NCBI RefSeq assembly: GCF_019633745.1
Contig: NZ_CP037968.1
Coordinates: forward strand, 912,789 to 936,788
Origin: Methanofollis formosanus
Lineage (GTDB): Archaea > Halobacteriota > Methanomicrobia > Methanomicrobiales > Methanofollaceae
DNA length: 24,000 nt
Direction of reading: 5' to 3'
Positions 5,891 through 22,939 of this stretch are shown one piece after another. Numbering within the stretch: position 1 is the stretch's first letter; each line of letters starts with the position of its first letter. The notes below the pieces were generated by a model. It saw only the letters and a program-made list of their open reading frames with translations, was not told the origin of the DNA and searched no databases. The translations under genes were made by a program, and so were the position numbers.

Positions 5891-5901
5891 GAGGGTGGGG
5901 T

Positions 5902-7252: not shown

Positions 7253-7266
7253 AGAAGTGCCATACT

Positions 7267-7278: not shown

Positions 7279-7389
7279 TCTGGTACTTAAATTTTCGGTA
7301 CGCCGGCGGCCGCCAGCGCCCTCTCCCCACAACCTTCAAATAATCGGATGGCCACAGACGCATGCACACAAGAGGGGGGAGCAAAAGAA

Positions 7390-7773
7390 ATGAGTTTTGC
7401 AAGTCCGGTCACGGTGGTCCACCCACGGATTGTGGCCACCGACAGGATCATCGGCAAGAGGGTGAAGAACGCCCTGGGCGAATACCTCGGGGAAGTCCAT
7501 CACCTGATGGTGGACATGGCCTCGGGTTCGATCGTCTTTGCCGTCCTCTCGTCAGGCGGGATCATGGGCCTGGGAGAGAAGTTGTACCCCGTGCCCTGGC
7601 AGGCGCTCACCGAAGAAGAGGACGATTTCCTCCTGAAGATGAGGAAAGAGACGATGGAGACCGCACCCAACTTCGACCGCGGCCACTGGCCGAAGGCCGA
7701 CGACCTCTCCTGGTTCGAGCGGGTGTACCGGTTCTACGACTACAGCCCGCCCTGGGAGATCGAGATCAAATAA
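7390..7773 (+). CDS. PRC-barrel domain protein (127 aa)
   Basis: ATG 7390 is preceded by GAGGGGGGA. The translation (IIGKRVKNALGEYLGEVHHLMVDMASGSIVFAVLSSGG...LYPVPWQAL) has the PRC-barrel pattern. Confidence 0.75.
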   Translation: MSFASPVTVVHPRIVATDRIIGKRVKNALGEYLGEVHHLMVDMASGSIVFAVLSSGGIMGLGEKLYPVPWQALTEEEDDFLLKMRKETMETAPNFDRGHWPKADDLSWFERVYRFYDYSPPWEIEIK

Positions 7774-7804
7774 AAAAGAAGCAAAGGCTCTGTTGAATCA
7801 GGCA

Positions 7805-7978
7805 GAATGGACAAAAAATGTTCAGATCGGTGTTTCGAGGGACGGAAAGATCGATCCCGGATGGCACCGCTCAGGTGCCGCCCCCGCCCTATCTTCTCGC
7901 GAGATGGCGGTACAGATCCGACGACCCGGGGCGGCACGCCTGATCATGCTGAAGATACTTCCGTCCTCTGCCGATCAG
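7805..7978 (+). repeat. copy C3 of a dispersed structured intergenic repeat (inverted relative to C1/C2; lacks the GC-hairpin module)
   Basis: Perfect 10-bp outer arms GTGCCGCCCC 7875-7884 and GGGGCGGCAC 7928-7937. Palindrome TCTCGCGAGA. Blocks GCCGCCCCCGCC(C)TATC, CGCGAGAT, GGGGCGGCACGCCTGATCAT and TCCTCTGC.GATC are shared with the reverse complement of 16281-16786. Confidence 0.65.
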
Positions 7979-8043
7979 ATACAGGTGCAGGGAAGGGGTT
8001 GACCCCAGGCACACACCTCAGAAAAGATTGTGAACAGAGCCAC

Positions 8044-10350: not shown

Positions 10351-10354
10351 CTGC

Positions 10355-11428
10355 TCACTCTCCCTCTGCCATGCTCCGCAACACCGCCCCGAACTCGCTC
10401 TCCACCATCTCCCTGACCCCGAGGGTCTTGGGGTGGAGGTCGACCTCGACGACGACCATGGCGTGGCCGATCGCCTTGAGGGGCGCGACCTGCCTGGGGC
10501 CGTTGGTGACCGAGATCGTCTCGATCCCGTCGGTGTACTCCGGCGGGACGGCGTGGGGCACGCCGACCAGGAAGGCGAAGTCGGGTTTGATCTCGCGGAT
10601 CCGTTCGCCGACGGCCGCGCCGTTCTCGCCATACTCGTCGAGCGAGCCGAGGAGTTCGGGGTCGAGCCCCCGCTCCTGCATCCCGGCCAGGACGCGCTCG
10701 CCGTCGGCCCGGACCTTCGGGAGACCGCGGTCCTCGAGGTTGGCGAGATAGGTGATCTCGGCCTCAGGGCAGGCCTCGCGGAGGGCGCAGAGTTCGTCGG
10801 CAAACATGTATGCCGTCTCTTTCTTGGCGTTGAGCACCGCGACCCCCCGTTTCCCGCTCCGCGCAAGGTCGAGGAGACGGCAGGCGGCGAGGTGCTTGAG
10901 GTCGCCCCGCGAGGGTTCGATGTACGGCTGCGAGGCCGCACCCCTGAGCCGTTCCACCTGGTTTGCCGCGGCGAGGAGACGGCGCTGCCGTTCGAGTTCG
11001 TCCTCGCTGATCCACCCGGCCCGTGCGGCCGGTTCGAGGACCGCAAGGACGCCTTCGATGTTCTCCCTGAAGCCCGCATGGATCTCGACGCCGATGGTCG
11101 GGGTCTCGACGCCCGACGCCTCGATGGCGGCTTCGATGTCCTCGCCGATGATCATCGAGACGCAGGTCCCGATCACCGCCATCCGCTTCGGGGAGAACTC
11201 GGTCTCGGCGTACCTGAGCACCCGCTCCAGGACGCCCTGACCACCGAAGATGAACTCGTTCTCGCCGAGCGAGGTGGTCAGGACCCGCATCCCGTCCTCT
11301 TCAAGGAGACGGGCGTGCTTGAAGGAGCAGCCCGATGGGCCGTGAAGGATCGCCACCTCCACCCCGAGGTCGCGGGCGGTGTACAGGGAAGCGACGATCG
11401 AGCTTGGGCGTGGTTGTACGTATTCCAT
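10355..11428 (-). CDS. cfbD: Ni-sirohydrochlorin a,c-diamide reductive cyclase, NifD/NifK-like subunit (357 aa)
   Basis: Nitrogenase component-1-like sequence without a P-loop (ILHGPSGCSFKHARL...VIGTCVSMIIGEDI). Lies 4-6 nt from its neighbours in the cfb operon. Confidence 0.8.
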   Translation of the reverse strand: MEYVQPRPSSIVASLYTARDLGVEVAILHGPSGCSFKHARLLEEDGMRVLTTSLGENEFIFGGQGVLERVLRYAETEFSPKRMAVIGTCVSMIIGEDIEAAIEASGVETPTIGVEIHAGFRENIEGVLAVLEPAARAGWISEDELERQRRLLAAANQVERLRGAASQPYIEPSRGDLKHLAACRLLDLARSGKRGVAVLNAKKETAYMFADELCALREACPEAEITYLANLEDRGLPKVRADGERVLAGMQERGLDPELLGSLDEYGENGAAVGERIREIKPDFAFLVGVPHAVPPEYTDGIETISVTNGPRQVAPLKAIGHAMVVVEVDLHPKTLGVREMVESEFGAVLRSMAEGE

Positions 11429-11434
11429 TCTATC

Positions 11435-12616
11435 CTATCTCCATGTCTTGACGGCAAGGACAATAGTCCCACCGTAGCTCATCTGCTCTGCTCTGTGGAT
11501 CCCGTCCTCCAGGTCGGCGGCCGTCACGGCGCCGGCCGGGAGGTCGTCTGCGTCGTAGTCGCCGACGACGACGGTGCGGTCGGGTGCGATCGCCGCCACC
11601 GCGGCCCGAACCTCCGCGGCCGGGAAGCCCTCGCAGATGGTCTGCCCCTCGGTCCCGATCACCAGGACGAGGGGGGCGGCGCCCCCGAGAGCCCGGGCGT
11701 ACGCGGCGGCGTCGACGGCGACCTCGCGGCAGGCGCCGCTGTTCGCGCAGTCGACGGTGAGGCGGCCCTCCTCGCGGGAGACCGCCATCCGTCCGGGAAG
11801 GGGAGCGAAGTCCGCGAGGCCTGCGGGATCGCGGCCGAGCAGGCAGGCGGCGGCGGCCGCCAGGTGCAGTGCCGTCCGGTAACCCCGCAGGGCAAGGAGC
11901 GGGTTCTCGAAGGAGCCTTTCGCATCGCCGTACCGGTAGGTGCAGCGCGTCCCCTCGACGACGGCGACTGCGTCGGCGGCGATCGCGCCCGGCACGTTCA
12001 CCCCGGTGGGGACGAGCACCCGCGGCGCGGCGGCGAGGGAGCGGACCTTCTCGGCGAGGGCCCGCTTCTTCCCGGCGGCGCAGGGGTAGTCGTCGCCCGA
12101 GGTGAGGACCGCAAGGTCGCCCACCCCCGAGACCCCGAGAGACTCTTCGGCGATCAACCACCCGCCGCACGCGACCGCTTCCTTCGCGGCCGGGAGGACC
12201 GAGGCCGGCGTGATGGAGCGTCTCCACAGACGCCGGCGTTCAGGAAAAACGAAGGTGCCCATCGAGGTGTGAAGCACCCCGGGGCCCCCGAGCAGATGCG
12301 CGAGGGCCGTCGCCGTGGTGGTCTTCCCCCTCGCACCGGTGACCTCGACCATCAATTCCGGGCGGCAGGAGAGAAGGAGGCGGCGGACCGCCTCATGGTG
12401 GGTGACGCGCTCAGGCGCCCGCCCGAGGAGAGGGTGGTCGGGGTCGAGGTGGACCGGGGCGACGACCAGGTCGTAGGACCGTCCCGCCGCCACGGCAGCG
12501 GGGATCCCGGTCTCGCCGCGGTAGACGTCCACCGCGTCGACGGTGTGCCCGGCCTCCTCCAGCGCCCCGGCGATCTCGGCGCCGCCGTGGATGGTGTCGA
12601 GGACGAGAATCTTCAT
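11435..12616 (-). CDS. cfbE: coenzyme F430 synthetase (Mur-ligase-like, 393 aa)
   Basis: Mur ligase ATP-binding motif VTGARGKTTT. The ATG directly abuts the cfbA stop (TGAATG). Confidence 0.8.
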   Translation of the reverse strand: MKILVLDTIHGGAEIAGALEEAGHTVDAVDVYRGETGIPAAVAAGRSYDLVVAPVHLDPDHPLLGRAPERVTHHEAVRRLLLSCRPELMVEVTGARGKTTTATALAHLLGGPGVLHTSMGTFVFPERRRLWRRSITPASVLPAAKEAVACGGWLIAEESLGVSGVGDLAVLTSGDDYPCAAGKKRALAEKVRSLAAAPRVLVPTGVNVPGAIAADAVAVVEGTRCTYRYGDAKGSFENPLLALRGYRTALHLAAAAACLLGRDPAGLADFAPLPGRMAVSREEGRLTVDCANSGACREVAVDAAAYARALGGAAPLVLVIGTEGQTICEGFPAAEVRAAVAAIAPDRTVVVGDYDADDLPAGAVTAADLEDGIHRAEQMSYGGTIVLAVKTWR

Positions 12617-13021
12617 TCAGACTTCTGCGTTGATCGCGTCTTCGGCGTTCTTGACCATCAGGTCGGCCAGGAGGGGGTCGGGCCCGATGGGGTTGGCATA
12701 GACCAGCGGGATCTCGCCGGTGGTGTGGGCGAAGAGCCCCTTCTTCTCGCCCTCGGGGAGGCCGAGGAGGGCCGGGATGTCCTTGAGGATGTGGATGCCC
12801 TTGGCAAGGAAGAGCGGGACGACGACGAGCATCTCGATCTCGTCTTCCTTAAAGAGGTTCAGGGCGTCCTCCACCGTCGGGGTGTTCATGGACATGAAGC
12901 CCGGCCTGACCAGGTATTCGGGGTGCTGGTCGGCGATGTGAGCGGCGGTCTTCTCGATGAGTTCCTTGTTGTAGGCAAGTTTGCTGCCGTGGCCGACGAG
13001 TAGTAATCCCTTTCGTGACAT
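12617..13021 (-). CDS. cfbA: sirohydrochlorin nickel/cobalt chelatase, small CbiX type (134 aa)
   Basis: From ATG 13021: MSRKGLLLVGHGSKLAYNKE...VVVPLFLAKGIHILKDIP, the CbiX(S) signature. The 25-aa upstream extension in the track is rejected. Confidence 0.8.
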   Translation of the reverse strand: MSRKGLLLVGHGSKLAYNKELIEKTAAHIADQHPEYLVRPGFMSMNTPTVEDALNLFKEDEIEMLVVVPLFLAKGIHILKDIPALLGLPEGEKKGLFAHTTGEIPLVYANPIGPDPLLADLMVKNAEDAINAEV

Positions 13022-13043
13022 ATAATAATGAGTACAACTTTCG

Positions 13044-13054
13044 TAGCATAAATG
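13044..13054 (-). promoter_or_regulatory. candidate TATA box (minus strand CATTTATGC) for the cfbAEDB operon, implying a leaderless or near-leaderless mRNA
   Basis: AT-rich box centred about 29 nt upstream of ATG 13021. There is no SD sequence in between. Confidence 0.35.
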
Positions 13055-13348
13055 TGTTACCGATTGGGTTTCCGGCCCGCCGGGCCGCCGGGGCATTGCC
13101 TTCCGACACCCGCACCTCCTGTGCGATGCAAGGGGACGTTCCTCACGGTCAACTCCGCCCGGTCGACGGGATCACGGTGTTTTCGGAGAAGGACAGACGG
13201 CACGGCCATCAGTCCATCGAATGCCGGACACGTCCGAGAACGAGGACTTCGCGAGGGGCATCCCGCTTGAACGCACCGGCAAGGCGTACACCCTCAACAG
13301 CCCGTAACAAAAGGGCTTTGTGATGACAGGGACAACATTGGAGGAAGC

Positions 13349-14485
13349 ATGATCGAGTGGTACGAACGCTGCGGATTGATCCTCAACGGCCAGGTGGTGA
13401 AGACTCCGGTTGTCATTGCATCGATGGCAGGGATAACCGACGCCGCCTATGTGCTGGCCAGAAAAGAGCATATCGGTGCCGCGTTCATCGGCGGATACTC
13501 CATCGACGCGGAGACGATGGAGGCGAGCCGCGCGATGGCGGCGGGGGGCCGGGACGAGTTTGTGTACGATGACCCGGTCGCCGAGTTGAAGGAACAGGTC
13601 AGTGCCCTGGAGGGAAGCGGGGTGTTGATCGGCCTGAACCTGCGGGGGAGCACGCCCGCCTCGTACGCGGCAGTCGCCGAGGAGATCGGGGACGGTGTGG
13701 TCTACGAGATCGATGCCCATTGCCGCCAGCCCCAGATGACGGCGATCGGGTGCGGCGAGGCCCTGCTGCACGAACCGCACCGGCTTGCCGAGATCGTCAG
13801 GGCGCTCAAGGCGCTGGACGTGACCGTCTCGGTGAAGATGCGGGCCGGCGTTGCGGAGAACGACGCCGCGCTCGCCCGTCTCCTCTGGAAGAGCGGGGCC
13901 GACCTCCTCCATGTGGACCTGATGGACTTCGGCTACGCACGGCTGCGCCAGATCCGGAATGCCTGCCCGTTGCCGCTCATCGCGAACAACTCGATCACTT
14001 CCTTCGACCGGGCGATGGACATGTTCGCCCATGGGGCCGATATGGTCTCGCTCGCACGACGTTCGGACGAGCGGACGCTGGCCGGGATCGATGCGGCGAT
14101 CTGCCGGCGGGCCGACGAGACCGGGTGGTACAACGCCCCCAAGCAGCTCTGCCGGGGCGGCGACATCAGGTCGCTCACCTTCTGCTGCCTGCCGGTGAAG
14201 CACTGCCCGCTTCTCCCGTTCCTGGAGAGATTGGGACTCACCAGGGAGGAGTATATGGCGATGAAGGCCGAAGCGGTCGCCGACACCCCGCTGGCCGACG
14301 GGAAGATGACCTGTTTCGGGAGTATGGCCTGGTGCTGCAAGTCGAGTTCGCCGTGCATGCTGCGCGGGATCGCGACGAAAGCGGCCGGAATCAGCGACCA
14401 GGAGTATATGCGCCTGAAGCGCCGGCTTGCCGACGAGATCATGGAGCGGATCTTCGATGGAGTGTCGGGCAAAGAAGAGTGCTGA
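13349..14485 (+). CDS. methanogenesis-marker-9-like fusion protein: Dus/DHOD-like TIM-barrel N-domain + Cys-rich C-domain (378 aa)
   Basis: ATG is preceded by GGAGGAAG. The N-domain has PVVIASMAGITD and IDAHCRQPQM...GCGEALL...VSVKMR (dihydrouridine-synthase-like). The C-domain has eight Cys, including two [FW]CC-x5-C motifs (FCCLPVKHC, WCCKSSSPC), as I recall for the marker-9 domain. Confidence 0.65.
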   Translation: MIEWYERCGLILNGQVVKTPVVIASMAGITDAAYVLARKEHIGAAFIGGYSIDAETMEASRAMAAGGRDEFVYDDPVAELKEQVSALEGSGVLIGLNLRGSTPASYAAVAEEIGDGVVYEIDAHCRQPQMTAIGCGEALLHEPHRLAEIVRALKALDVTVSVKMRAGVAENDAALARLLWKSGADLLHVDLMDFGYARLRQIRNACPLPLIANNSITSFDRAMDMFAHGADMVSLARRSDERTLAGIDAAICRRADETGWYNAPKQLCRGGDIRSLTFCCLPVKHCPLLPFLERLGLTREEYMAMKAEAVADTPLADGKMTCFGSMAWCCKSSSPCMLRGIATKAAGISDQEYMRLKRRLADEIMERIFDGVSGKEEC

Positions 14486-15278
14486 GCTGGCGCAGCTCGC
14501 GATGGCCCTGGAGGTCTCGGCCTCCCCGAAGCCGGGGAACGTGGACCGGGGCCACGACTATCCCGACACTCGTCTGGAACACTTCCTGGCCTCGGCAGTC
14601 TTCGCGGGCCGGGCCCTGGGTCTGGCCGAGGAGGGCGGGCCGGGGATCGGTGAGGTGATCCTGGAGGCGGTGAAGGACACCAACTGCCATGCCGGCGGGA
14701 ACACGCATTTCGGGGCGTTTATCCTGCTGGTCCCGCTGGTCCGGGGCGGCGGCGTCGACGGGGCCGTGCGGGCGGTGCAGGCGACGACGGTCGATGACGC
14801 GGTGGCCTTCTACCGGGCTTTCGGGGCGACGCAGGTGCGGGTGCTGGAGAGCGACGACCTGGACGTGAACGATCCCACGGCGCTGGAGCGCCTGCGCGAG
14901 GAGGGGATGACCCTCTACGATGTGATGGCCTACTCGGCGCCGCGGGACATGGTGGCGCGGGAGTGGACGAACGGCTTCGCGCTCTGCCGGGAGACAAAGG
15001 ATCTCCTCTTCGCCCACGGCAGCGGGAAGGAGGCGATCGTGCGGGCCTTCCTCGACCTGCTGGCGGCCCACCCGGACACCTTTGTCGCGAAGAAACTGGG
15101 CGACGACGCGGCCCGCCGGACGATGGAACGGGCCGGCGAGGTGAAGGCCGGGACGCTCTCGCTGGAGGCCTTCGACGAGGAGTGTCTGGCCGCCGGGGTG
15201 AACCCGGGTTCGCTGGCCGACATCATGATCGCGGGGATCTATCTCGCGCTCAACGAGGGGTGGGCATGGGATTCCTGA
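14457..15278 (+). CDS. triphosphoribosyl-dephospho-CoA synthase (CitG/MdcB)-like protein (273 aa)
   Basis: ATG 14457 follows GGAGCGGA. The sequence has PKPGNVDR, GGNTHFGAFILL and NPGSLADI, which are CitG-family motifs. It overlaps the upstream gene by 29 nt. Confidence 0.7.
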   Translation: MECRAKKSAELAQLAMALEVSASPKPGNVDRGHDYPDTRLEHFLASAVFAGRALGLAEEGGPGIGEVILEAVKDTNCHAGGNTHFGAFILLVPLVRGGGVDGAVRAVQATTVDDAVAFYRAFGATQVRVLESDDLDVNDPTALERLREEGMTLYDVMAYSAPRDMVAREWTNGFALCRETKDLLFAHGSGKEAIVRAFLDLLAAHPDTFVAKKLGDDAARRTMERAGEVKAGTLSLEAFDEECLAAGVNPGSLADIMIAGIYLALNEGWAWDS

Positions 15279-15835
15279 GAGAGGGGATCAACGAGGTGGT
15301 CGCGACGACCCGCGGCAATGCCGCACCGATGGGGATCATCTGCCGCAACGGCGCGCTCTCGATGGTCCTGTTCCGGGGTTCCCACACCGAGGCAAATATC
15401 AGACGGGACGGATGGGTGGTCGCCAACCTCACCGCCGACCCGGTGGTCTGGGTGCGCACGGCCTTCGAGGACCTGCCGCCCGAGGATCTGGTCGCCGAGG
15501 AGGTCGGGGGCCGGCGGGTGGAGCGCCTGCGGGCGTGCGAGGCCTGGGCGGCGTTCGCGGCGGAGGTGAAGCACGAGACCGCGGAGAAGACCCTGGTCGC
15601 CCTCACCCCGCTGGCGGAGCCGGTGGTCCTGAAGGAGGGGGTCTGCCCGGTGAACCGCGGGTTTGCCGGGATCATCGAGGCGACGGTGCATGCCACCCGG
15701 TATGTGCAGAACCGAGACCCGCATCTCAGGGCCCTCATCGATCATCACCTGGCGCTGGTGCAGCGGTGCGGGGGGCCGCGGGAGTGGGAGGCGGCGCGGG
15801 TGTTGAAGGGATTTCTCGGCGACGAGAAGAAGTGA
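15266..15835 (+). CDS. DUF447-family protein (189 aa), a family linked with CitG-like genes in tetrahydromethanopterin-related clusters
   Basis: From ATG 15266: MGFLREGINEVVATTRGNAAPMGII...NRGFAGIIEATVHATRY. It overlaps the CitG-like gene by 13 nt. The family call is from memory. Confidence 0.6.
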   Translation: MGFLREGINEVVATTRGNAAPMGIICRNGALSMVLFRGSHTEANIRRDGWVVANLTADPVVWVRTAFEDLPPEDLVAEEVGGRRVERLRACEAWAAFAAEVKHETAEKTLVALTPLAEPVVLKEGVCPVNRGFAGIIEATVHATRYVQNRDPHLRALIDHHLALVQRCGGPREWEAARVLKGFLGDEKK

Positions 15836-16280
15836 ACGTTCCGGGTGAACCGCGATCACGGGAAGACGGAATCGATCTCGTCTCTGGATCTGGCACTGAG
15901 GTCATCCCAAAACTCTCCGGCCCTCCTCCTCATTGATGATGACGATGGGGAGAGACCTGCTTCTCCGTCGCGCAACTCTGCATTCATCACCTTCCTACAC
16001 CGCCGCGCCGTGGGCGAGTTTGAGGGCGGCTCTCCGATAATGTTCCTACGTGGTGGCTTCTCCGAAGAGGGAGCACGATCCGTCCCTTCTCCTGATACTT
16101 ACGATCATTTTTGGCTGTGGGGTGGTGGATAAAGATTTTACCGCCCCAAGCACCTGCATGGACTTGATATGCAGAGGAAAGAAACACCCTCTGAACGATC
16201 AACCCTCTGCCTTCCCGGTCCTCTCTTCATCCCCGGCGGTCCGAGGGACAGCGCCCCCGGCACAAGGGTGTGGGAAGGCA

Positions 16281-16480
16281 TGATGATCAGGCGTGCCGCC
16301 CCTATCGCAGAATCTGTCCTGGTATCTCGCGCCGGGGGGAGACCCCCCGGACCCCCCACGACGAGGATAGGCGGGGGCGGCGAAGGAACACGATCCCCAT
16401 CGGTTCTTCAGTCTTGAAAAAGAGCGATCGAGCGACGAGAAATTTTCATCCCATATGCTTGAGACGTGCTTTCCCTTCAT
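16281..16480 (-). repeat. copy C1 of the dispersed structured intergenic repeat
   Basis: Outer arms GCCGCCCC 16295-16302 and GGGGCGGC 16374-16381. Perfect 8-bp GC hairpin CCGGGGGG-aga-CCCCCCGG at 16332-16350. Small hairpin core GACGAGAAATTTTCATC at 16434-16450. About 3/4 identical to C2 in ungapped blocks, by eye. Confidence 0.7.
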
Positions 16481-16560
16481 GTTGAATTACCATGAAAATG
16501 ATCCAGACGATCCTCTCTTCAAGTTTGCATGAGAGTTTGCACTCTTCATATCACGTTGAA

Positions 16561-16786
16561 GCCGATACGCAGAGGATAAAAAAATTCTTCTGATGGATCG
16601 ACCGCCCCCATCGTCGAGATTTCCCTGCCATCTCGCGCCGGGGAGTTTCACCCCCCGGACCCTCCACGGACCGAAGATAGGTGGGGGCTGCGATGGAACG
16701 AAGTCTCCACCAGTTCTCCTGTCTTGAAAAGAGAGAGAGCACGTGACGAGAAATTTTCATCACGTATGCTTGAACCCCACGTTCAT
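16561..16786 (-). repeat. copy C2 of the dispersed structured intergenic repeat
   Basis: Same block order as C1. GC hairpin at 16638-16658, which gives 8 bp including one G-U only when read on the minus strand. 9-bp hairpin ACGTGACGA-gaaattt-TCATCACGT at 16741-16765, again with a G-U pair only on the minus strand. A7 run at 16578-16584 (T7 on minus) at its 3' end. Confidence 0.7.
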
Positions 16787-16817
16787 GCCCGATTCTACAG
16801 AACCCTATAATCTCCTT

Positions 16818-17258
16818 TCATTCGGACGTGAGTCGAGAGATCGTGAGAAACGGGCATCTTTTGAAATCATTGTCAAATGTTGCGATCTCAGGGATCGCAT
16901 GCTGAAGACATGTTGCGGCGATAAGAGCATCGTTCGGCAAAAGGCCGTACTCTCTCATCAATTCTCGCGCCTTCTGCTCTTCAGAATGGGTGAGGGGGAT
17001 GGTCTGAGCAATATCAATAAGTTTTTCGACTTTCTGGAGTTCTGTTTTTATTTCTGTTATAATATCGGGATTTGTTTTTATTTCATGAGGTTTTTTGCCG
17101 GTGTACAGGCGTATAAACACATGCATGACTTCGCTCCCGACAATTGCATTTCGGTAGATCCGCTTTTTCTGACTGAAGGCCAAAAAATGTCGAGAGATCT
17201 CTTCATCTCCTTCCAGTATCTTTAGGAAGACATTTGAATCAATAAAGGCCCCATTCAT
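16818..17258 (-). CDS. vapC: PIN-domain toxin (VapC-like ribonuclease, 146 aa)
   Basis: [15 protein letters not shown] (N-terminal acidic D), ...[13 protein letters not shown]...ATFDNDF. This is the PIN acidic-residue pattern. It overlaps the upstream antitoxin gene by 20 nt. Confidence 0.8.
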
Positions 17259-17436
17259 TTTCCATCTCTTTCAGCGCTTTTTCAGTATCTTTCCCTTTCA
17301 AAAGACCGAATGCGGCATCGATGGTGTTGGATGGTTCTTCTATGGCGATCCGGATCCGTGTCCCCTCCTTCAGGTCGATCTTCTGGAGGGGCCTGAGGAC
17401 GCCGGATTCATAGATGGCATCGATCACTTTTGTCAT
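17239..17436 (-). CDS. vapB: small antitoxin of the DUF104/AF2212-like type paired with PIN toxins (65 aa)
   Basis: [34 protein letters not shown] is the typical pattern of this archaeal antitoxin family. SD GAGAGGAGAAG lies upstream. Confidence 0.7.
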
Positions 17437-17574
17437 CGTCTTCTCCTCTCGGTTGTACCATGAAAGATATTTCTGGAAGGTTTTTCCCTCACCGACAGGG
17501 TATGAGGGTGTTGATGATAGATCATCAGTCTCCGGGAATGAAGACTCGATGGCATCATCACGTGATGGTTCGTA

Positions 17575-17847
17575 CTATCGTATTGGTACATAAGGATTTG
17601 GACGGGCCTGATAGGGGGTCTCCGGGGTGGTGATCCCATCGATTGGCGGGATGGAAATTCCCCTCCTCAGCTGGATCACAAGCCAGTCGTCGACGACTTC
17701 GGCCAGATTTTTCCGGCACTCTTCCAGGGTCGTACCGGTGGCCCATACCCCCGGCAGGTCAGGGATCTCCCCATAGTAGGGTTCTTCGCCCTCGATGATC
17801 TCATAGTGGGCATGCTGCAATGCCGCCGTGATGTATTCGATGATCAT
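17575..17847 (-). CDS. HicB-like (UPF0150) antitoxin-family protein (90 aa from ATG 17847; GTG 17853 possible)
   Basis: YYGEIPDLPGVWATGTTLEECRKNLAEVVDDWL matches the HicB N-domain pattern (vPdlpGc.t.GeTleEa..n..eai..w). No HicA-like ORF was found beside it. Confidence 0.65.
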   Translation of the reverse strand: MIIEYITAALQHAHYEIIEGEEPYYGEIPDLPGVWATGTTLEECRKNLAEVVDDWLVIQLRRGISIPPIDGITTPETPYQARPNPYVPIR

Positions 17848-17966
17848 GTCCACTCAAGAGGGACCATGGATCCCTGAGAAGAATAAGACTTTGCCATATG
17901 AGGGGATGGACGGTCCTGTCGCCGGGTCCGGGAGGGTGGTGCTGGTGGAGTCAGAGTATGTACCTT

Positions 17967-18497
17967 TCATTCTTTACCAGGCCCGTCCTCCCCGATGCAC
18001 GACATCCCATCCTCCTCTCTCTCATTCTCTTCTTCTGTTCCGCGGGAGATGATCCACGCGACGCCGAGGAGGAGAGGCACGCCGACCGGCACGGAGAAAC
18101 CCGCGGGCCCGTGGAAGAGCGGGCCGTACTGCGCGATCACCGCGGCGAGGTAGGCGATGCCGGCGCCGGTGACGAGGAGGGAGAGGGGTTTTCTGAAGGT
18201 TTCGTATTCCTCGTGCCGTTTGAGGACGAGGCAGGCGACCGCGACGAGGAGGAGGAGGGTGCCGCCGAGCCAGAGGAGGACGGAGAGTGCGGAACGGCCA
18301 GCAAGGATGCCCGAGGTGACATAGTCGAGGTCGCGGAAGAGGGTGATGAGATTTGTGCCCATGTAGGTCTGCTGGTACCGGAAGAGGGCGAACTGGATGC
18401 CGGCACCGATGCCGTCGCCGATGAGGTAGATGTTGGTGGGCAGGGCGAGGGTGAGGGCGAGGAGGGCGGCGAGGAAGGGGCGGGTGGTCGTCGTCAT
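17967..18497 (-). CDS. integral membrane protein (176 aa, about 4-5 TM, acidic C-tail), unknown function
   Basis: ATG 18497 is preceded by CAGGAGACG. The translation is hydrophobic. It is co-oriented with, and downstream of, the 584-aa membrane protein gene. Confidence 0.6.
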   Translation of the reverse strand: MTTTTRPFLAALLALTLALPTNIYLIGDGIGAGIQFALFRYQQTYMGTNLITLFRDLDYVTSGILAGRSALSVLLWLGGTLLLLVAVACLVLKRHEEYETFRKPLSLLVTGAGIAYLAAVIAQYGPLFHGPAGFSVPVGVPLLLGVAWIISRGTEEENEREEDGMSCIGEDGPGKE

Positions 18498-18639
18498 CGC
18501 AGCGTCTCCTGCCGGCAGGATGGTCGTGCGAGATGGTGTTGGTCAGAGAGAGCGTCGGTCATTCTCCTGAAGAAGAGGGCGTGTACAGAGAAGAATCTGC
18601 CGTATCCGGTCTCATTCCAGAGAGATGGCCATCCCCTCA

Positions 18640-20394
18640 TCAGAAGGGGAAGAGCCAGTACTGGATGTACCAGATATACTGCACCGCCGGGATCCAGAAG
18701 TGGTAGCCTTCCCAGCAGGTGGTGGCGAAGCGGAAGTCCACCACCAGTCCCCATGCAAGGGAGAAGATCATCAGCACCGGGACGGCATAGGCGAGGGCTC
18801 TGGAAGGGATTTTGTTGAGGAAGACCCCGCAGAAGAGCGTCACAGTCACCCCGAGGTAGAGATAGGTGAGATACATCAGGAAGGCGATCTCTCCGGCCGC
18901 CCATGTACCTGAGATGACCAGGAGGACGACGTAGATGAGAGGCAGGTCAAGGAGCACGAGCCAGAAGAGTGTTTTCAACGAGGTCTTGATCTCGCCGTCG
19001 CCGAAGCCCACGTATTTGAGGGCATAGAGGCCGAGGACGAGCGTCGGTAGGTAGAGGGGGGAGAGGTAGCGCATGTCCGGGACGATGCCCGGGCTTGACG
19101 GCATCCAGGCGACGGAGCGGAGGTAGGTGATCATCACCAGGACCGCGGCCAGGGCGAAGAAGGCGAGGAGATGGAGATCTCGCTGAGGGATGCCGATATC
19201 GCCCTGACGGTAGAGGGCGTAGCCGACAGTAATAGCCAGGATGAGGGCGAAGAAGGAGAGCGAGGAGACCTGGAAGATCCCGGCCGAATTTCCAGAGACC
19301 GGGTCGATGAAGGCGCCGTAGAGGCCGGAGAAGAGGTCGCCGGAGGAGGGAGTGAACTGCCTGATCACGTTGAACAGGAGGCTCCCCATTCCCTCCGGCA
19401 TCTGCGAGGAGGTGGCCGAGGCGTAGCCTGCGACCCAGGGGAGGAGGAGGGGGTTGCCGCAGAGGGCCAGGTTGTTTACGAAGAGTGGGAGAGCGCCGAG
19501 CGGCACCCCGAGGACGGCGAGGGCCGTTGTTCCGGCGGTGCGCCACCCTTTCCGCACCGAGAGCGCGAGGGCGAAGAGGAAGAACCCGACGGCCAGGGCG
19601 GGCCCCAGTTCAGGCCGCGCCCATGCCGTCCACCCGACGGCGATGAAGGAGGCGAAGAGCCAGAGGGGCCGGTCGCGGGAGATCCAGAGGGTAAAGAGGT
19701 ACAGGGCCGTCGCAAAGAAGAGGGCGACGAGCATGTGATCCTTGGCGTTCCCTGCCCAGAAGAGATACGACGAGCAGCAGACCGTCGCCACCAGACCGAA
19801 GAGTCCCCAGCGGTCGGAGTTGAAGACTTCCCGGAAGATGAGGCAGGCAAGCACACCGAAGAGGGCGAAGGCCACGCCGTTGGTGAAGACGATCGCGGCG
19901 ACCTCGGGATAGACGCTGAGGTCGTAGGGGTGCACCCCCCGCACGAACCAGAAGGGGCGGTAGAGTGCCATGTTGAGGACGAAAAGCACTCCCCACGAGA
20001 TGATCCCCGCGTAGGTCCACGGGATGCCCTGCCAGCGGGCGTACTGCGGGTACCAGAACTCGATCATGAGGAGGAGAAGGAGCAGCAGGGCCGACCAGAG
20101 GAGGACCACGACGAGGCGGAAGTCGTCGCCGAAGAGTGAGAAGAGATAGTAGGCAGGGAGGGAGACGACCGGCAGGGCGAGGGTGTAGCAGAGGCAGTCG
20201 TGATGCGACTGTGCGTACCCTCCTCCGCCATAGGGTTCGTAACCGAAGAGGGGGTCTTTGCCCTCGACCAGGTGGTTGAGTTGACTGGCCGAGATCCATT
20301 CGTCCGTCAGATACAGGGCGGGATAGCCCACACTGCAGGCGAGCAGTACGCAGACGACAAAGATGGTGCAGCAGTCCCGAAAAAAAAGGTTCAT
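18640..20394 (-). CDS. large polytopic membrane protein (584 aa, roughly 14+ TM); GT-C-fold-like putative glycosyltransferase (tentative)
   Basis: The translation is almost entirely hydrophobic. An acidic pair sits in the first loop after TM1 (YLTDEWISASQ), where GT-C enzymes carry DE/DxD. ATG 20394 lies 7 nt after the pilin-1 stop (TTG 20409 is the track start). No WWDxG motif, so it is not an AglB/STT3. Confidence 0.75.
   Translation of the reverse strand: MNLFFRDCCTIFVVCVLLACSVGYPALYLTDEWISASQLNHLVEGKDPLFGYEPYGGGGYAQSHHDCLCYTLALPVVSLPAYYLFSLFGDDFRLVVVLLWSALLLLLLLMIEFWYPQYARWQGIPWTYAGIISWGVLFVLNMALYRPFWFVRGVHPYDLSVYPEVAAIVFTNGVAFALFGVLACLIFREVFNSDRWGLFGLVATVCCSSYLFWAGNAKDHMLVALFFATALYLFTLWISRDRPLWLFASFIAVGWTAWARPELGPALAVGFFLFALALSVRKGWRTAGTTALAVLGVPLGALPLFVNNLALCGNPLLLPWVAGYASATSSQMPEGMGSLLFNVIRQFTPSSGDLFSGLYGAFIDPVSGNSAGIFQVSSLSFFALILAITVGYALYRQGDIGIPQRDLHLLAFFALAAVLVMITYLRSVAWMPSSPGIVPDMRYLSPLYLPTLVLGLYALKYVGFGDGEIKTSLKTLFWLVLLDLPLIYVVLLVISGTWAAGEIAFLMYLTYLYLGVTVTLFCGVFLNKIPSRALAYAVPVLMIFSLAWGLVVDFRFATTCWEGYHFWIPAVQYIWYIQYWLFPF
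20380..20387 (-). terminator. T8 tract (minus strand) 14 nt after the pilin-1 stop, lying inside codons 2-5 of the 584-aa membrane protein gene; possible attenuating terminator
   Basis: A8 on the plus strand. The other pilin paralogs carry T5-T6 tracts at comparable distances after their stops (21177-21182, 21978-21983, 22411-22415). Confidence 0.35.
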
Positions 20395-20401: not shown

Positions 20402-20845
20402 TCAGACAAAGGTGTCCAGGATGACCTGCTCGTACCCGTCCTTGAAATGACCTGTCACGACGACGTGATTCTTACCGTCACCGCCAGCGCCAGTAAATGT
20501 CCATGCTTTGCCTACAGGGACACGGCATCCACTCACTTCAGACTCCGCGGGTGCGCTAGTACCAGTTGAACCCGTATCGCCGACAGTATAACAGAGGGCT
20601 TTGTCCTCAACATTCATTATCAGATAACTTAATTCGCCGTTGTCCGCCCCGCCCTTATAGGTGATAATAATATCATCATTCTGCTGAATGGCGGTGGCGG
20701 CGACGATCTTGGTGGTCGAGACATTGCCGGCCATGCCGAAGACGAACGCGGCGATGACCGCCGCGAGGATCACCGTGATGGCGACCATCAGGATGACGCC
20801 GATCACCGGAGATACCGCTTCTTCATTTTTTACGAACTCTTTCAT
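20402..20845 (-). CDS. archaeal type IV pilin-like protein, paralog 1 (DUF1628-type, 147 aa)
   Basis: Class III signal peptide MKEFVKNEEA|VSPVIGVILMVAITVILAAVIAAFV. SD GGAGGAAGGAAGGTGA upstream. C-terminal motif HVVVTGHFKDGYEQVILDTFV is shared by all four paralogs. The 33-aa extension in the track ORF is rejected. Confidence 0.85.
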   Translation of the reverse strand: MKEFVKNEEAVSPVIGVILMVAITVILAAVIAAFVFGMAGNVSTTKIVAATAIQQNDDIIITYKGGADNGELSYLIMNVEDKALCYTVGDTGSTGTSAPAESEVSGCRVPVGKAWTFTGAGGDGKNHVVVTGHFKDGYEQVILDTFV

Positions 20846-20900
20846 CGGTTTTTCACCTTCCTTCCTCCGGGGAGTCAGGATAGCATATGCTTCATCGAGG

Positions 20901-20912
20901 AAATATAATAAT
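20901..20912 (-). promoter_or_regulatory. candidate TATA box for pilin paralog 1
   Basis: AT-rich box about 57 nt upstream of the ATG. Equivalent boxes sit at the same distance upstream of paralogs 2 and 4, each followed by a conserved GCATAT.CTATCC motif. Confidence 0.4.
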
Positions 20913-21194
20913 ATTTTTAATTTATCACGAGATTCTAAACACATGATAATTTATATCTTGTGTTTTGAGTTCTGCAATTTCACCACCCACCGGGCAGATC
21001 TTCTGCCCCGAGGAGGGGCACAGACAGAGAAAAAAGATCAGTACAGCCTCATCGGCAGCCCGCAATTCCCGGACAGATCGCGCCCATTCCTCCCTCGTTT
21101 TCAGCCCTAGGTCTGCGCGGTGACGACAGGCATCGGAGCAAAGAGCGAAGGTATCGTCGGGGTGTGCTGTTATGAGAAAAAATAGGAGAGACGT

Positions 21195-21638
21195 TCAGAC
21201 GAAAGTGTCAAGAACGACCTGTTCGCTGCCGTCTGTGAAGTGGCCGGTTACGACAACATGGTTCTTGCCGCTCCAGTCACCATCACTACTCTCCCTCATC
21301 AGCACCATAGAACTGCCAACCAAGGGCCCAGTAGCACCTGAACTGCTTGCGCTAAGAGTGCCCTTTTTACTGGTAGTATAATAGATCGTACCGTTTGGTG
21401 CGGTTACACTGAGCCATTCTATCAACTGGTGATCAGCACCGCCTTTGTAGGTTATGATAATTTCATCACTGCCCTGTTGAGTGGCGGTGACGGCGACAAT
21501 CTTGGGAGTCGAGATATTGCCGGCCATACCAAGGACAAAGGCGGCGATCACGGCCGCGAGGATCACCGTGATGGCGACCATCAGGATGACGCCTATAACC
21601 GGAGAGATTGCTTCTTCATTCTGGACGAGATGATTCAT
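21195..21638 (-). CDS. archaeal type IV pilin-like protein, paralog 2 (147 aa)
   Basis: MNHLVQNEEA|ISPVIGVILMVAITVILAAVIAAFV. Its SD/5' leader is identical to that of paralog 1. C-terminal HVVVTGHFTDGSEQVVLDTFV. Confidence 0.85.
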   Translation of the reverse strand: MNHLVQNEEAISPVIGVILMVAITVILAAVIAAFVLGMAGNISTPKIVAVTATQQGSDEIIITYKGGADHQLIEWLSVTAPNGTIYYTTSKKGTLSASSSGATGPLVGSSMVLMRESSDGDWSGKNHVVVTGHFTDGSEQVVLDTFV

Positions 21639-21695
21639 CGGTTTTTCACCTTCCTTCCTCCGGGGAGTCAGGATAGAATATGCTCGCCCAAAGCA

Positions 21696-21707
21696 GTATA
21701 AATATAT
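21696..21707 (-). promoter_or_regulatory. candidate TATA box for pilin paralog 2
   Basis: Minus strand ATATATTTATAC, about 59 nt upstream of ATG 21638. Confidence 0.4.
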
Positions 21708-21995
21708 TATTAATTTAATTTTGAACTTTTGATTGGCAATAATTTATATCTTATGTTTTGAGTTCTGCAATTCCGCCGTCCTCAAGGCAGATCCTCCGCC
21801 CTGACGAGGAGGACGGACAAGGGAGAGAAAGAAAAGAGAGGAGTTTCAGCACCATTATTCAAGGATATCAGGATGTATAGCGGCCCCTGCGCCTTCTTCC
21901 CCGCCCCCTAACCTGCGCGGGCGATGGCAGGCATCGGGACCGAAAGGAGAGAGGTCGCCGGGGTACGCCGTTATGAGAAAAAAGGGTAAAGATGG

Positions 21996-22388
21996 TCAGA
22001 CAGAGGTGTCCAGAACGACCTGCGACGAACCGTCGTTGTACGTCGCGATGACCATGACCCGGTGCTTCTTCCCGGGATCTGCGGATGTCGTCGCATTGAC
22101 GGCCACCGACCCGATCGTATGGTCGAGCAGGTCGGCCTGTTCAGCCCCATCGATCGTCCAGTTCAGGTGATCGACCGCGGCCGACCCATCGCCGCCGAGA
22201 TATGTGACCTGAATCGCCCCGTCATCCGTCCTGACAGCCTTTGCCCCGACAAGCCCATTTTCAGGGATATCCCCGAGGGTGCCGAGCGAGAAGGAAGCGA
22301 CAAAAGCGGCGAGGGTCACGGTGACGGCGACCATGAGGACGGTGGCGACGGTCGGGGAGACCGCGTCGTCATCTCCAGACCGAATCAT
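21996..22388 (-). CDS. archaeal type IV pilin-like protein, divergent paralog 3 (130 aa)
   Basis: MIRSGDDDA|VSPTVATVLMVAVTVTLAAFVASF. C-terminal VMVIATYNDGSSQVVLDTSV. Only 36 nt separate it from paralog 4. SD GGGTGGAG upstream. Confidence 0.8.
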   Translation of the reverse strand: MIRSGDDDAVSPTVATVLMVAVTVTLAAFVASFSLGTLGDIPENGLVGAKAVRTDDGAIQVTYLGGDGSAAVDHLNWTIDGAEQADLLDHTIGSVAVNATTSADPGKKHRVMVIATYNDGSSQVVLDTSV

Positions 22389-22424
22389 AGGTCTCCACCC
22401 TCATAAAGAAAAAGGGGAAGAGGT

Positions 22425-22883
22425 TCAGACAAAGGTGTCCAGGACGACCTGGTCGGAGCCATCCGCGAAGTGGGCGGCAACGACGACGTGGTCCTTCGCT
22501 GCAGATCCCTTGTTGTCAAACTTCTGACTGTAACCAACAGGAATGCTCCCAACAACAGGAGAGCTAATCTGATCCACTGAGGTCACATTCATAACTCCCG
22601 TGGAGTTCGCATAGTAGTAAAACGAATTGGTACCGTCAGGAGAAATCCTCAGATACTCGACATTGTTGGAGTCTGCCCCACCCTGGTAGGTGACGATAAT
22701 GGCGGAACCCTGCTGGGTGGCGGTGGCGGCGACATTCTTGGTGGACGACATGTTGCCGGCCATACCAAACACGAACGCAGCGATGACCGCCGCGAGGATC
22801 ACCGTGATGGCGACCATGAGGATGACGCCGATAACCGGCGACACAGCCTCGTCATTCTTTTCAAACTTCTCGAACAGTTTCAT
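22425..22883 (-). CDS. archaeal type IV pilin-like protein, paralog 4 (152 aa from ATG 22883; the track start 22892 is GTG)
   Basis: MKLFEKFEKNDEA|VSPVIGVILMVAITVILAAVIAAFV. SD GGAGGTGA 5 nt upstream. C-terminal HVVVAAHFADGSDQVVLDTFV. Confidence 0.85.
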   Translation of the reverse strand: MKLFEKFEKNDEAVSPVIGVILMVAITVILAAVIAAFVFGMAGNMSSTKNVAATATQQGSAIIVTYQGGADSNNVEYLRISPDGTNSFYYYANSTGVMNVTSVDQISSPVVGSIPVGYSQKFDNKGSAAKDHVVVAAHFADGSDQVVLDTFV

Positions 22884-22939
22884 CGGTTTCACCTCCAGAC
22901 CTCAGGTGAGGCTGGATAGTATATGCTCTCAAGCGAGCA

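What the first reader, a model, noticed from the sequence alone, without database searches (positions are those of the whole stretch)
16281..16786. Two diverged copies of a ~190-nt structured element in a 1-kb gene-free region downstream of vapBC
Seen in the sequence: 15836-16817 has no convincing gene but contains two co-oriented copies, C1 (16281-16480) and C2 (16561-16786), with the same block order. By eye, one 49-nt ungapped block has 36 identities. Each copy has:
- Outer GC arms (C1: GCCGCCCC 16295-16302 and GGGGCGGC 16374-16381).
- An internal 8-bp G/C hairpin with different loops (aga in C1; a longer loop in C2).
- A conserved hairpin core GACGAGAAATTTTCATC, extended to 9 bp in C2.

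In C2, two stem positions are G-U pairs only if the RNA is the minus strand; they would be A-C mismatches on the plus strand. That points to a minus-strand transcript. C2 ends with a T7 run (minus strand) and begins 32 nt after the vapC stop.

The long ORFs overlapping the copies do not keep a common frame between copies, because the indels are +2, +2 and +1 nt.

Inference: this is a noncoding structured RNA or protein-binding repeat family (REP/BIME-like 3' intergenic element, MITE-like element or sRNA gene) that I cannot assign to any family I know.
Basis: seen in the sequence. Interest (0 to 1): 0.7.

Follow-up and report, generated by a model that had tools for sequence, protein, structure and literature searches.

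The report
IS5-related MITE copies in Methanofollis
The two look-alike "structured elements" are copies of a small transposon without a transposase gene (a MITE) whose ends match an IS5-family insertion sequence of methanogenic archaea, so this is an ordinary kind of selfish DNA, not a new RNA gene.

Summary
C1 and C2 are real, co-oriented, about 77-81% identical repeats with the GC stems and hairpins described. They are longer than reported: C1 is about 16113-16488 and C2 is 16484-16804, and they abut head to tail.

A third copy, C3 (7786-8041, minus strand), lies between convergent PRC-barrel and ilvE genes. Further copies occur at other, non-orthologous sites in Methanofollis aquaemaris, a Methanofollis MAG, M. 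tationis (fragments) and two metagenome contigs.

The copies end in GGCTCTGTWGAAW. This is also the terminal inverted repeat of a roughly 1010-bp IS5-family insertion sequence (ISMepa1-like) that makes 8-bp target duplications. One metagenome contig physically joins that transposase gene to a C2-like element.

The closest relative has only 19 nt where C3 sits, and the inverted repeats bound the extra DNA exactly.

There is no Rfam match, no covariation, no conserved terminator and no protein-family hit.

[quoted passage not shown] It is a new member of a known kind and of low interest.

Two points remain open. The target duplications of the MITE copies are not recognisable. The GC-rich palindromic core is unusually conserved, including a 40-nt block identical between species.

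The parts
16113..16488 (+). MITE copy C1 (about 376 bp). The right arm runs to ...CCCTTCATGTTGAATT and lacks the last ~10 nt of the right inverted repeat. Homology to other copies is secure from about 16148/16171 onward. The left end at 16113 (GGCTGTGGGG...) is only a putative, degenerate inverted repeat.
   Evidence: 75.7% identity over 222 nt to the M. aquaemaris copy Maq1, window 16171-16381. A 40-nt block is identical to Maq1. A 20-nt block is identical to C3 (I24, 85). The termini are tabulated.
16484..16804 (+). MITE copy C2 (about 321 bp). The left tip is missing and the copy is joined to C1 at a shared GAATT. The right end carries a complete inverted repeat.
   Evidence: 85.9% identity over 205 nt to the element fused to an IS5-family transposase gene in metagenome contig L096, compared with 76.7% to C1. 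The right terminus matches the IS terminus.
16484..16488 (+). C1/C2 junction. GAATT is shared by the inner part of C1's right repeat and C2's left repeat, and the two facing tips are deleted.
   Evidence: Read from the sequence. The same junction type...AAGGAATT|ACCATGAAAATG..., joins an IS copy to a C2-like element in L096, whereas the otherwise 99.7% identical IS in L099 ends ...AAGGAATTCTACAGAGCC.
16791..16804 (-). Right terminal inverted repeat of C2, read on the minus strand as GGTTCTGTAGAATC.
   Evidence: It is one of only three matches in 24 kb to the IS terminus GGCTCTGTWGAAW with up to 2 mismatches. The independent Logan contig L001 ends at 16803, exactly at this tip.
16295..16381 (.). 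GC-rich imperfect palindromic core of C1. It has an outer stem GCCGCCCC/GGGGCGGC, a middle stem ATCTCG/CGAGGAT, and a G/C hairpin at 16332-16350.
   Evidence: (MFE -52 kcal/mol, z = -2.3).
16602..16691 (.). GC-rich palindromic core of C2, with its G/C hairpin at 16638-16658.
   Evidence: D18; z = -3.3 on plus, -1.9 on minus.
16434..16450 (.). Hairpin GACGAGAAATTTTCATC in the right arm of C1, repeated at 16745-16761 in C2. It is part of the long subterminal repeat of the family.
   Evidence: In M. aquaemaris (Maq1) the inverted counterpart of the neighbouring right-arm sequence (C2 16758-16801, CATCACGTATG...GATTCTACAG; the 16745-16761 hairpin itself is matched only in its last few bases) forms the left arm: 84% over 44 nt in reverse orientation.
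7786..8041 (-). MITE copy C3 (256 bp), complete with both terminal inverted repeats: 8041-8026 GGCTCTGTTCACAATC and 7799-7786 GATTCAACAGAGCC, both as read on the minus strand. It lacks the internal G/C hairpin, and in its place is the palindrome TCTCGCGAGA.
   Evidence: M. aquaemaris has only 19 nt between the PRC-barrel and ilvE stop codons, where the window has 287 nt. The nhmmer core profile gives E=6e-11.
15854..15900 (-). Remnant of the 3' end of a RelE/ParE-like toxin gene (...EIDSVFP*). It is not part of the MITEs but lies in the same gene-free region.
   Evidence: 86% identity over 36 nt to the sequence just downstream of DUF447 in M. aquaemaris. The translation is compared with the 90-aa M. 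aquaemaris protein.
15897..15931 (-). A short repeat fragment ('Y', GGAGAGTTTTGGGATGACCTC). It also occurs inside Maq1 and next to the element in L096. Its nature is unexplained.
   Evidence: 84-89% identity over 35-37 nt.

Best explanation
[quoted passage not shown] Each element is 250-470 bp and has no transposase gene.

Anatomy. The elements end in GGCTCTGTWGAAW (as an inverted repeat). In some copies this extends into 20-45-nt subterminal inverted repeats. The ends enclose a GC-rich imperfect palindrome.

Relation to the IS. The terminal sequence is the same as that of a roughly 1010-bp IS5-family insertion sequence (ISMepa1-like, DDE transposase) that inserts with 8-bp target duplications.

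Inferred mechanism. A transposase from such an IS elsewhere in the genome binds the shared ends and moves the MITE in trans into AT-rich intergenic DNA. Copies survive mainly between convergent genes, where they do no harm.

The 1-kb gene-free stretch. It is a small graveyard made of a toxin-gene remnant, a repeat fragment and two MITEs of different subfamilies. The two MITEs inserted head to tail, and their facing tips were lost at a shared GAATT.

The stems and hairpins.

Shown here: the repeat family, the shared termini, the physical IS-MITE link, presence/absence at orthologous sites, and the lack of RNA-gene signatures.
Inferred: trans-mobilisation, the insertion history, and how the junction formed.
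For: 1. Dispersed family. There are three copies in the window and two in the M. aquaemaris locus L089 (1320-1786 and 13480-13573). There is one in the Methanofollis MAG locus L102, two decayed fragments in the M. tationis locus L105, and two on metagenome contigs L095 and L096. None is at an orthologous position.

2. Termini. The termini of C3 (both), Maq1 (both), C2, L095 and L096 align with the inverted repeats of the IS copies in L099, L104 and L098. The only three matches to GGCTCTGTWGAAW in the 24-kb window are the two ends of C3, facing inward, and the outer end of C2.

3. Physical link. L096 carries an IS5-family transposase 3' end fused to a C2-like element (85.9% over 205 nt), and that element ends in the IS-type repeat. 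The transposase part matches Pfam DDE_Tnp_1 at E=4e-21 and is 76% identical to ISMepa1. L099 has the same IS, 99.7% identical, without the element.

4. Presence/absence. The PRC/ilvE gap is 19 nt in M. aquaemaris and 287 nt in the window, and the extra DNA is bounded by the inverted repeats. Conversely, copy Maq2 sits in a 500-nt gap that is absent from the window, where the two genes overlap.

5. Independent insertions. C2 is closer to L096 (86%) than to its neighbour C1 (77%). C1 shares a roughly 100-nt segment only with Maq1 and L102.

6. The IS is a working transposon type. Three copies have perfect 8-bp target duplications: AAATTAAA, GAAAAATT and GGTTCCAA.

7. No coding or RNA-family signal.

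8. Fit to the published description of prokaryotic MITEs (PMC10969869): under 500 bp, TIRs, AT-rich intergenic targets, stable stem-loops, clustered and nested copies, and direct repeats that fade with age.
Against: - No MITE copy has a recognisable 8-bp target duplication. C3's flanks are GAAGCAAA and ACAAAAAA, 4 of 8 identical, and the other copies are worse.
- C1's left inverted repeat is doubtful, and C2 has no left tip.
- The internal sequence of the MITEs shows no similarity to the interior of the IS, so derivation from that IS by deletion is not shown. Only the ends are shared.
- No transposase gene lies in the window, and I could not examine the rest of the source genome, so a cognate transposase in this organism is unproven.
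- Copies are 72-86% identical and several are decayed, so the family may no longer be mobile.
- The GC-rich core is more conserved than I would expect for neutral junk. A 40-nt block is identical between the window and M. aquaemaris, against about 76% overall.
Confidence: 0.85

Rival explanations
1. IS debris rather than MITEs. On this reading C2, and perhaps C1, are left-over 3' tails of a long variant of the IS (as in L096: transposase gene, then a ~330-bp tail, then the right repeat) after the transposase gene was deleted in place. They would never have moved as small elements.
For: C2 starts exactly where the L096 element joins the transposase gene (GAATT|ACCATGAAAATG) and has no left terminal repeat. 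C1's left repeat is doubtful.
Against: C3 and Maq1 are complete small elements with both repeats, and C3 fills a site that is empty in the sister species. Upstream of C2 there is another element (C1), not IS sequence. The 99.7% identical IS in L099 has no tail, so the tail is an addition to the IS, not part of it.
Confidence: 0.1
2. A structured non-coding RNA gene or cis-acting RNA. On this reading the conserved GC-rich core is transcribed, on the minus strand as a vapBC 3'UTR or sRNA, and acts as RNA. The transposon-like ends would be incidental, or the RNA rides on a MITE.
For: The stems are conserved while the hairpin loops vary (AGA, TTTCA, ATGCA, AAA, AA). There is a 40-nt identical block between species. 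Folding energies are somewhat below shuffles, with z down to -3.3. MITE-derived sRNAs are known in bacteria (PMC10969869).
Against: There is no Rfam match, even at E up to 10. RNAalifold found 0 of 21 pairs with compensatory changes. With 8 copies, covariation measures are matched or exceeded by 24-60 of 500 shuffles, and the best-kept helices never vary. Both strands fold equally well. The T7 run and the flanks are not conserved. C3 lacks the hairpin entirely. Copies are absent from orthologous sites.
Confidence: 0.04
3. A REP/BIME-like element: short extragenic palindromes spread by a RAYT (IS200/IS605-type) transposase or kept by the host as protein-binding or terminator sites.
For: The copies lie between convergent genes and are palindromic and GC-rich. 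The G/C hairpin motif also survives in otherwise decayed fragments in M. tationis.
Against: The units are 250-470 bp, not 20-40 bp. They have IS5-type terminal inverted repeats and are physically joined to a DDE (not HUH) transposase gene. The G/C hairpin was found only inside these elements in about 105 kb examined.
Confidence: 0.01

Closest known systems
ISMepa1-like IS5-family insertion sequences of Methanomicrobiales (NCBI name 'IS5-like element ISMepa1 family transposase', Methanosphaerula palustris)
   Same: The terminal inverted repeats are the same, GGCTCTGTWGAAW. One contig joins the transposase gene to a C2-like element. Targets are AT-rich.
   Different: The window elements have no transposase gene and are 250-470 bp rather than about 1010 bp. 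Their interior is unrelated to the IS interior. The 8-bp target duplications that flank the IS copies are not recognisable around them.
Archaeal MITEs such as SM1-SM4 of Sulfolobus solfataricus and those of Halobacterium and Haloquadratum (listed in PMC10969869)
   Same: They are small non-autonomous elements with IS-like inverted repeats, multicopy, intergenic, and presumed to be mobilised in trans by resident IS transposases.
   Different: The host lineage differs (Methanofollis, Methanomicrobiales) and so does the sequence. The core is a GC-rich palindrome rather than AT-rich. I found no paper describing this family, but the library searched is incomplete.
Bacterial hairpin-forming MITEs (Correia/NEMIS, ERIC, RUP/BOX/SPRITE clusters)
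   Same: They have long internal palindromes that fold as RNA or ssDNA. They insert next to or into one another and sit in 3' regions of genes (PMC10969869).
   Different: Effects on transcription or RNA processing are documented for those elements. None has been tested here, and archaeal termination relies on oligo-T rather than hairpins (my own knowledge, not tested).
REP/BIME elements
   Same: They are extragenic, palindromic, GC-rich, and lie between convergent genes.
   Different: REPs are about 35 nt and depend on RAYT (my own knowledge). These units are ten times longer and carry DDE-IS termini.

Membership tests
MITE (miniature inverted-repeat transposable element) | Small (typically <500 bp) and without a transposase gene | tested here: met
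   C3 is 256 bp, C2 about 321 bp, C1 about 376 bp and Maq1 about 467 bp. No overlapping ORF has a Pfam hit, and open frames differ between copies.
MITE (miniature inverted-repeat transposable element) | Terminal inverted repeats | tested here: met
   C3 has GGCTCTGTT at both tips. Maq1 has 17 of 20 nt complementary at its tips. C2, L095 and L096 have the right repeat. C2's left tip is missing and C1's is doubtful, so the feature is met for the family but not for every copy.
MITE (miniature inverted-repeat transposable element) | Termini shared with an autonomous IS that could supply transposase | tested here: met
   The termini align with the inverted repeats of IS copies in L099, L104 and L098. 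The IS-MITE fusion in L096 contrasts with the IS alone in L099. Related IS5-family transposases are annotated in M. tationis and M. formosanus.
MITE (miniature inverted-repeat transposable element) | Target-site duplication of the length made by the partner IS (8 bp) | tested here: not met
   The IS copies have perfect 8-bp duplications. C3's flanks are GAAGCAAA and ACAAAAAA (4 of 8), and no other copy does better. The review notes that direct repeats fade with age (PMC10969869), so this weakens the classification without excluding it.
MITE (miniature inverted-repeat transposable element) | Multicopy, dispersed, with presence/absence at orthologous sites | tested here: met
   There are 8 copies plus 2 fragments in about 105 kb of Methanofollis DNA and two metagenome contigs. 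The site filled by C3 is empty in M. aquaemaris, and the site filled by Maq2 is empty in the window.
MITE (miniature inverted-repeat transposable element) | Cognate transposase present in the same genome, and actual mobility | not testable with these tools
   The window has no transposase gene. The source genome is not in the collections I could scan (one search found only chance bacterial hits).
Structured ncRNA / sRNA gene | Compensatory base changes supporting a conserved secondary structure | tested here: not met
   RNAalifold found 0 of 21 pairs with changes on both sides. On 8 copies there are 6 single cells with double changes, and 34 of 500 shuffles do as well; the structure was derived from C1, which biases the count towards it. 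The sample is small.
Structured ncRNA / sRNA gene | Match to a described RNA family | tested here: not met
   Rfam 15 cmscan finds nothing at gathering score. At E up to 10 there are only chance-level hits, the best being Clostridiales-2 at 19.7 bits against a 58.6-bit cut-off.
Structured ncRNA / sRNA gene | Conserved position and own transcription signals | tested here: not met
   Copies are absent from orthologous sites. The T7 run in C2 is not present in C1, C3, Maq1, L095 or L096. Archaeal promoters could not be scanned with the tools available.
REP/BIME | Short (~20-40 nt) palindromic unit associated with a RAYT transposase | tested here: not met
   The units are 250-470 bp with DDE-IS termini. 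The G/C hairpin never occurs outside these elements in the loci examined. The presence of a RAYT gene could not be tested.
Autonomous IS5-family insertion sequence | Encodes a DDE transposase between the inverted repeats | tested here: not met
   There is no DDE_Tnp_1 or other Pfam hit in ORFs over C1, C2 or C3.

The most novel reading that the evidence does not exclude
The GC-rich palindromic core is a functional module and not junk. The core runs ...GCCGCCCC...ATCTCGCG-[CCGGGGGG-loop-CCCCCCGG]-ACCCCCCACGACGARGATAGG..GGGGCGGC. It is kept across MITE subfamilies with different arms and includes a 40-nt block identical between two species. It could be a MITE-borne small RNA, a binding site for the transposase or a host protein, or a bidirectional transcription barrier between convergent archaeal genes. 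The IS-MITE fusion seen in L096 would then show how an IS picks up and spreads such a module.
Probability: 0.08. Interest if true: 0.5.

Novelty: new member of a known kind. Interest (0 to 1): 0.2.

Why it matters
Practical value. The result prevents about 700 nt of transposon debris downstream of vapBC, and 256 nt downstream of ilvE, from being annotated as a new RNA gene. It also explains why short-read assemblies of this organism break there: a Logan contig ends exactly at the tip of C2.

Biological value is modest. It adds a MITE family, with an identifiable IS5-family partner, to Methanofollis, in the Methanomicrobiales, an order for which the review and paper searches used here turned up no MITE report (the review does say less is known about archaeal MITEs in general). 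It gives presence/absence markers between closely related Methanofollis genomes. It also provides one example of an IS and a MITE fused through their facing inverted repeats, which is a plausible route to new element variants.

Tried and rejected
- The genome-contig scan with CCGCCCCN{20,23}ATCTCGCGN{4,34}GATAGG returned 79 hits, all bacterial and all chance-level. The pattern was too loose for GC-rich genomes and the source genome is not among the representatives. That scan was wasted.
- Viral-contig scans found only chance 17-mer hits, or nothing.
- Plasmid and phage BLASTN found no match.
- I first read the start of C2 (GTTGAATTACCATGAA) as a plain left inverted repeat, and later as the end of a transposase ORF. 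Comparison of L096 with L099 showed it is a junction at a shared GAATT.
- I considered a local tandem duplication of C1 into C2. I rejected it because C2 is closer to a metagenomic copy than to C1, and C1 has a segment that only Maq1 and L102 share.
- I considered a small conserved protein on the minus strand (93-aa and 70-aa ORFs). I rejected it because there is no Pfam hit, the frames are broken by indels, and the frames differ in other copies.
- I considered derivation from tRNA-Glu or att sites because of the nearby integrase. I did not test this with any tool; reading the tRNA-Glu sequence against the element by eye, I saw no clear similarity.
- I searched for 8-bp target duplications around every copy and found none convincing.
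- P0138 (the M. formosanus transposase) could not be located on a contig.
- Literature searches for ISMepa1 or Methanofollis MITEs found nothing specific.

Full report
**1. Context**

The window is from a Methanofollis species. The DUF447 protein encoded at 15266-15835 is 91% identical to that of M. aquaemaris, and the gene order is the same as in that genome. That order is: F430-biosynthesis genes, a Dus-like gene, CitG, then DUF447.

The finding lies between DUF447 (plus strand, stop at 15835) and a vapBC pair on the minus strand. VapC is a PIN-domain protein at 16818-17258, and the AF2212-like antitoxin is at 17239-17436. The region therefore sits between convergent genes.

**2.

C1 and C2 align at 81% column identity. 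BLASTN gives 76.7% over 172 nt with E=3e-29. None of the ORFs over the region has a Pfam match.

**3. The repeat family is larger and dispersed**

- A 20-nt perfect inverted match (I24) led to a third copy, C3, on the minus strand between the convergent PRC-barrel gene (7348-7773) and ilvE.
- BLASTN and an nhmmer profile of the core found two copies in the 20-kb M. aquaemaris locus L089 (about 1320-1786 and 13480-13573).
- They also found one copy in a Methanofollis MAG (L102 2874-3087), two decayed fragments in M. tationis (L105), and two copies on JGI metagenome contigs (L095, L096). None was found in M. liminatans.
- None of these copies is at a position orthologous to another.

**4. The ends identify the element**

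C3 is bounded by GGCTCTGTTCACAATC and GATTCAACAGAGCC. Maq1 is bounded by GACTCTGTTGAATCGGGCATGA... and ...TCATGAGCGATTCTACAGAGC. C2, L095 and L096 end in (G)ATTCTACAGARCC.

Read on its minus strand, contig L096 carries the last 197 codons of a DDE transposase. It matches Pfam DDE_Tnp_1 at E=4e-21 and is 76% identical to the 'IS5-like element ISMepa1 family transposase' of Methanosphaerula palustris. This is followed by a C2-like element (85.9% over 205 nt) that ends in ...AAATTCTACAGAGCC.

Contig L099 has the same IS, 99.7% identical over 589 nt, but it ends directly ...AAGGAATTCTACAGAGCC. Its left end is GGCCCTGTAGAAACC.

Full IS copies in L098, L104 and L106 are about 1010 bp. They carry the repeats GGCTCTGTTGAAA and perfect 8-bp target duplications: GAAAAATT, AAATTAAA and GGTTCCAA.

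So the repeats in the window carry the terminal inverted repeats of this IS family. In the whole 24-kb window, the only three matches to GGCTCTGTWGAAW with up to 2 mismatches are the two inward-facing ends of C3 and the outer end of C2.

**5. Evidence for insertion**

In M. aquaemaris the PRC-barrel and ilvE stop codons are 19 nt apart. In the window they are 287 nt apart, and the extra DNA is the 256-bp C3 plus a few A-rich bases.

The reverse case also occurs. Maq2 lies in a 500-nt gap in M. aquaemaris, while the corresponding genes in the window overlap.

DUF447 in M. aquaemaris is followed after 4 nt by a convergent toxin-antitoxin pair. The window keeps only a remnant of the last codons of that toxin gene (15854-15900).

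An independent short-read contig, L001, is 100% identical to window 16803-19649 and stops exactly at the tip of C2. This is what one expects at the edge of a repeat or a polymorphic insertion, but it is only suggestive.

**6. Anatomy of the 982-nt gene-free stretch**

| Coordinates | Content |
|---|---|
| 15854-15900 | Toxin-gene remnant |
| 15897-15931 | Short repeat fragment 'Y', also found inside Maq1 and beside the L096 element |
| ~16113-16488 | C1 |
| 16484-16804 | C2 |
| 16805-16817 | 13-nt spacer before the vapC stop |

C1 and C2 are not a local duplication. C2 is closer to L096 (86%) than to C1 (77%). C1 shares a roughly 100-nt segment, itself an inverted copy of the hairpin region, only with Maq1 and L102.

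At their junction, C1's right arm stops at ...CATGTTGAATT and C2 begins at ACCATGAAAATG. The same kind of junction joins the IS to the element in L096.

My inference is that two elements abutted with right repeat against left repeat, and the palindromic junction collapsed between the two GAATT pentamers. A site-specific insertion into the repeat cannot be excluded.

**7. Tests of the RNA-gene reading**

- Rfam 15 gives nothing at gathering thresholds and only chance-level hits at E up to 10.
- RNAalifold on six copies finds no pair with compensatory change.
- On eight copies, the structure derived from C1 has 77% of cells paired against 75.7% in shuffles, and 34 of 500 shuffles give as many double changes. 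The two best-kept helices are kept by plain sequence conservation.
- Both strands fold about equally, and z-scores are modest, from -1.2 to -3.3.
- The strand argument from G-U pairs is not robust. The 17-nt hairpin has one mismatch and one wobble on either strand, and L096 has a wobble that favours the plus strand.
- The T7 run is specific to C2.
- C3 lacks the G/C hairpin. There the flanking sequence forms the perfect palindrome TCTCGCGAGA, so the hairpin looks like an insertion into, or a deletion from, the centre of a larger palindrome.

**8. What remains odd**

- No MITE copy shows the 8-bp duplication that the IS makes. The copies are old (72-86% identical), and direct repeats are known to fade (PMC10969869), but C3 has well-kept tips, so this counts as a real weakness.
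- The MITE interior is unrelated to the IS interior.
- The core is unusually conserved. C1 and Maq1 share 40 identical nucleotides and C1 and L095 share 30, while the hairpin loops differ. This could reflect function, recent exchange or mutational bias. I give a functional core about 8%.

**9. Comparison with known elements and verdict**

The family fits the published description of prokaryotic MITEs (PMC10969869). Its partner is an ISMepa1-like IS5-family element. The 8-bp duplication recalls the ISH1 group of that family, but this is from memory and was not tested.

Archaeal MITEs are known in Sulfolobus, Halobacterium, Haloquadratum and others. I found no description of this family in Methanofollis, though the literature library is incomplete.

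Verdict: a real feature, correctly observed, explained as MITE copies. It is a new member of a known kind and of low interest (0.2).

Noticed in passing
window 155-7253: There appears to be an integrated island at tRNA-Glu(TTC) (7179-7253, minus). A tyrosine integrase with a C-terminal zinc ribbon (5902-7188, minus) abuts the tRNA. Further in lies a BrxL-like Lon ATPase gene (155-1657), suggesting a BREX-type defence island. M. aquaemaris keeps only the two flanks (L089 1183-1276 and 1830-2004), with MITE copy Maq1 between them.
   Followed up: partly
window 20402-22892 (minus strand): There are four tandem paralogous genes for archaeal type IV pilin-like proteins (Pilin_N). They form a repeat unit of about 793 nt, including conserved upstream sequence (D1-D3 and D8).
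   Followed up: partly
window 15854-15900 (minus strand): A remnant of the last codons of a RelE/ParE-like toxin gene (...EIDSVFP*). It is homologous to the 90-aa gene that directly follows DUF447 in M. aquaemaris. The toxin-antitoxin content downstream of DUF447 differs in every Methanofollis genome examined.
   Followed up: partly
window 15897-15931 (minus); L089 1687-1721; L096 47-104: A short conserved motif, GGAGAGTTTTGGGATGACCTC (it translates as GEFWDDL), recurs in three different contexts: beside the toxin remnant, inside MITE Maq1, and just outside the right repeat of the L096 element. Its origin is unexplained. It could be another repeat family or a gene fragment.
   Followed up: partly
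L001 (Logan SRR17713754) = window 16803-19649: This short-read contig is 100% identical to the window and ends exactly at the outer tip of MITE C2. Its other end falls inside a membrane-protein gene. The first break is consistent with a repeat or an insertion polymorphism at the MITE boundary.
   Followed up: no
L096 (Ga0172377_10476897) versus L099 (ERZ27250894 k141_2024248): These are two 99.7% identical IS5-family IS copies. One has a normal right end. In the other the right repeat is interrupted after GGAATT by a ~330-bp MITE that supplies a new right tip. The result is a natural IS-MITE fusion that could transpose as one unit.
   Followed up: yes
L106 9692-11369 (GCA_032774505.1): An ISMepa1-like IS copy is inserted in a DUF6198 gene, splitting it into two called ORFs, with a perfect 8-bp duplication GGTTCCAA. 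This points to recent activity of this IS family.
   Followed up: partly
window 8962-13096 (minus strand): This is a coenzyme F430 biosynthesis-type gene cluster (CbiX-like, CfbE-like, nitrogenase-like Oxidored_nitro, CbiA-like amidase). It is conserved in order with M. aquaemaris and M. liminatans. It is ordinary for a methanogen.
   Followed up: no
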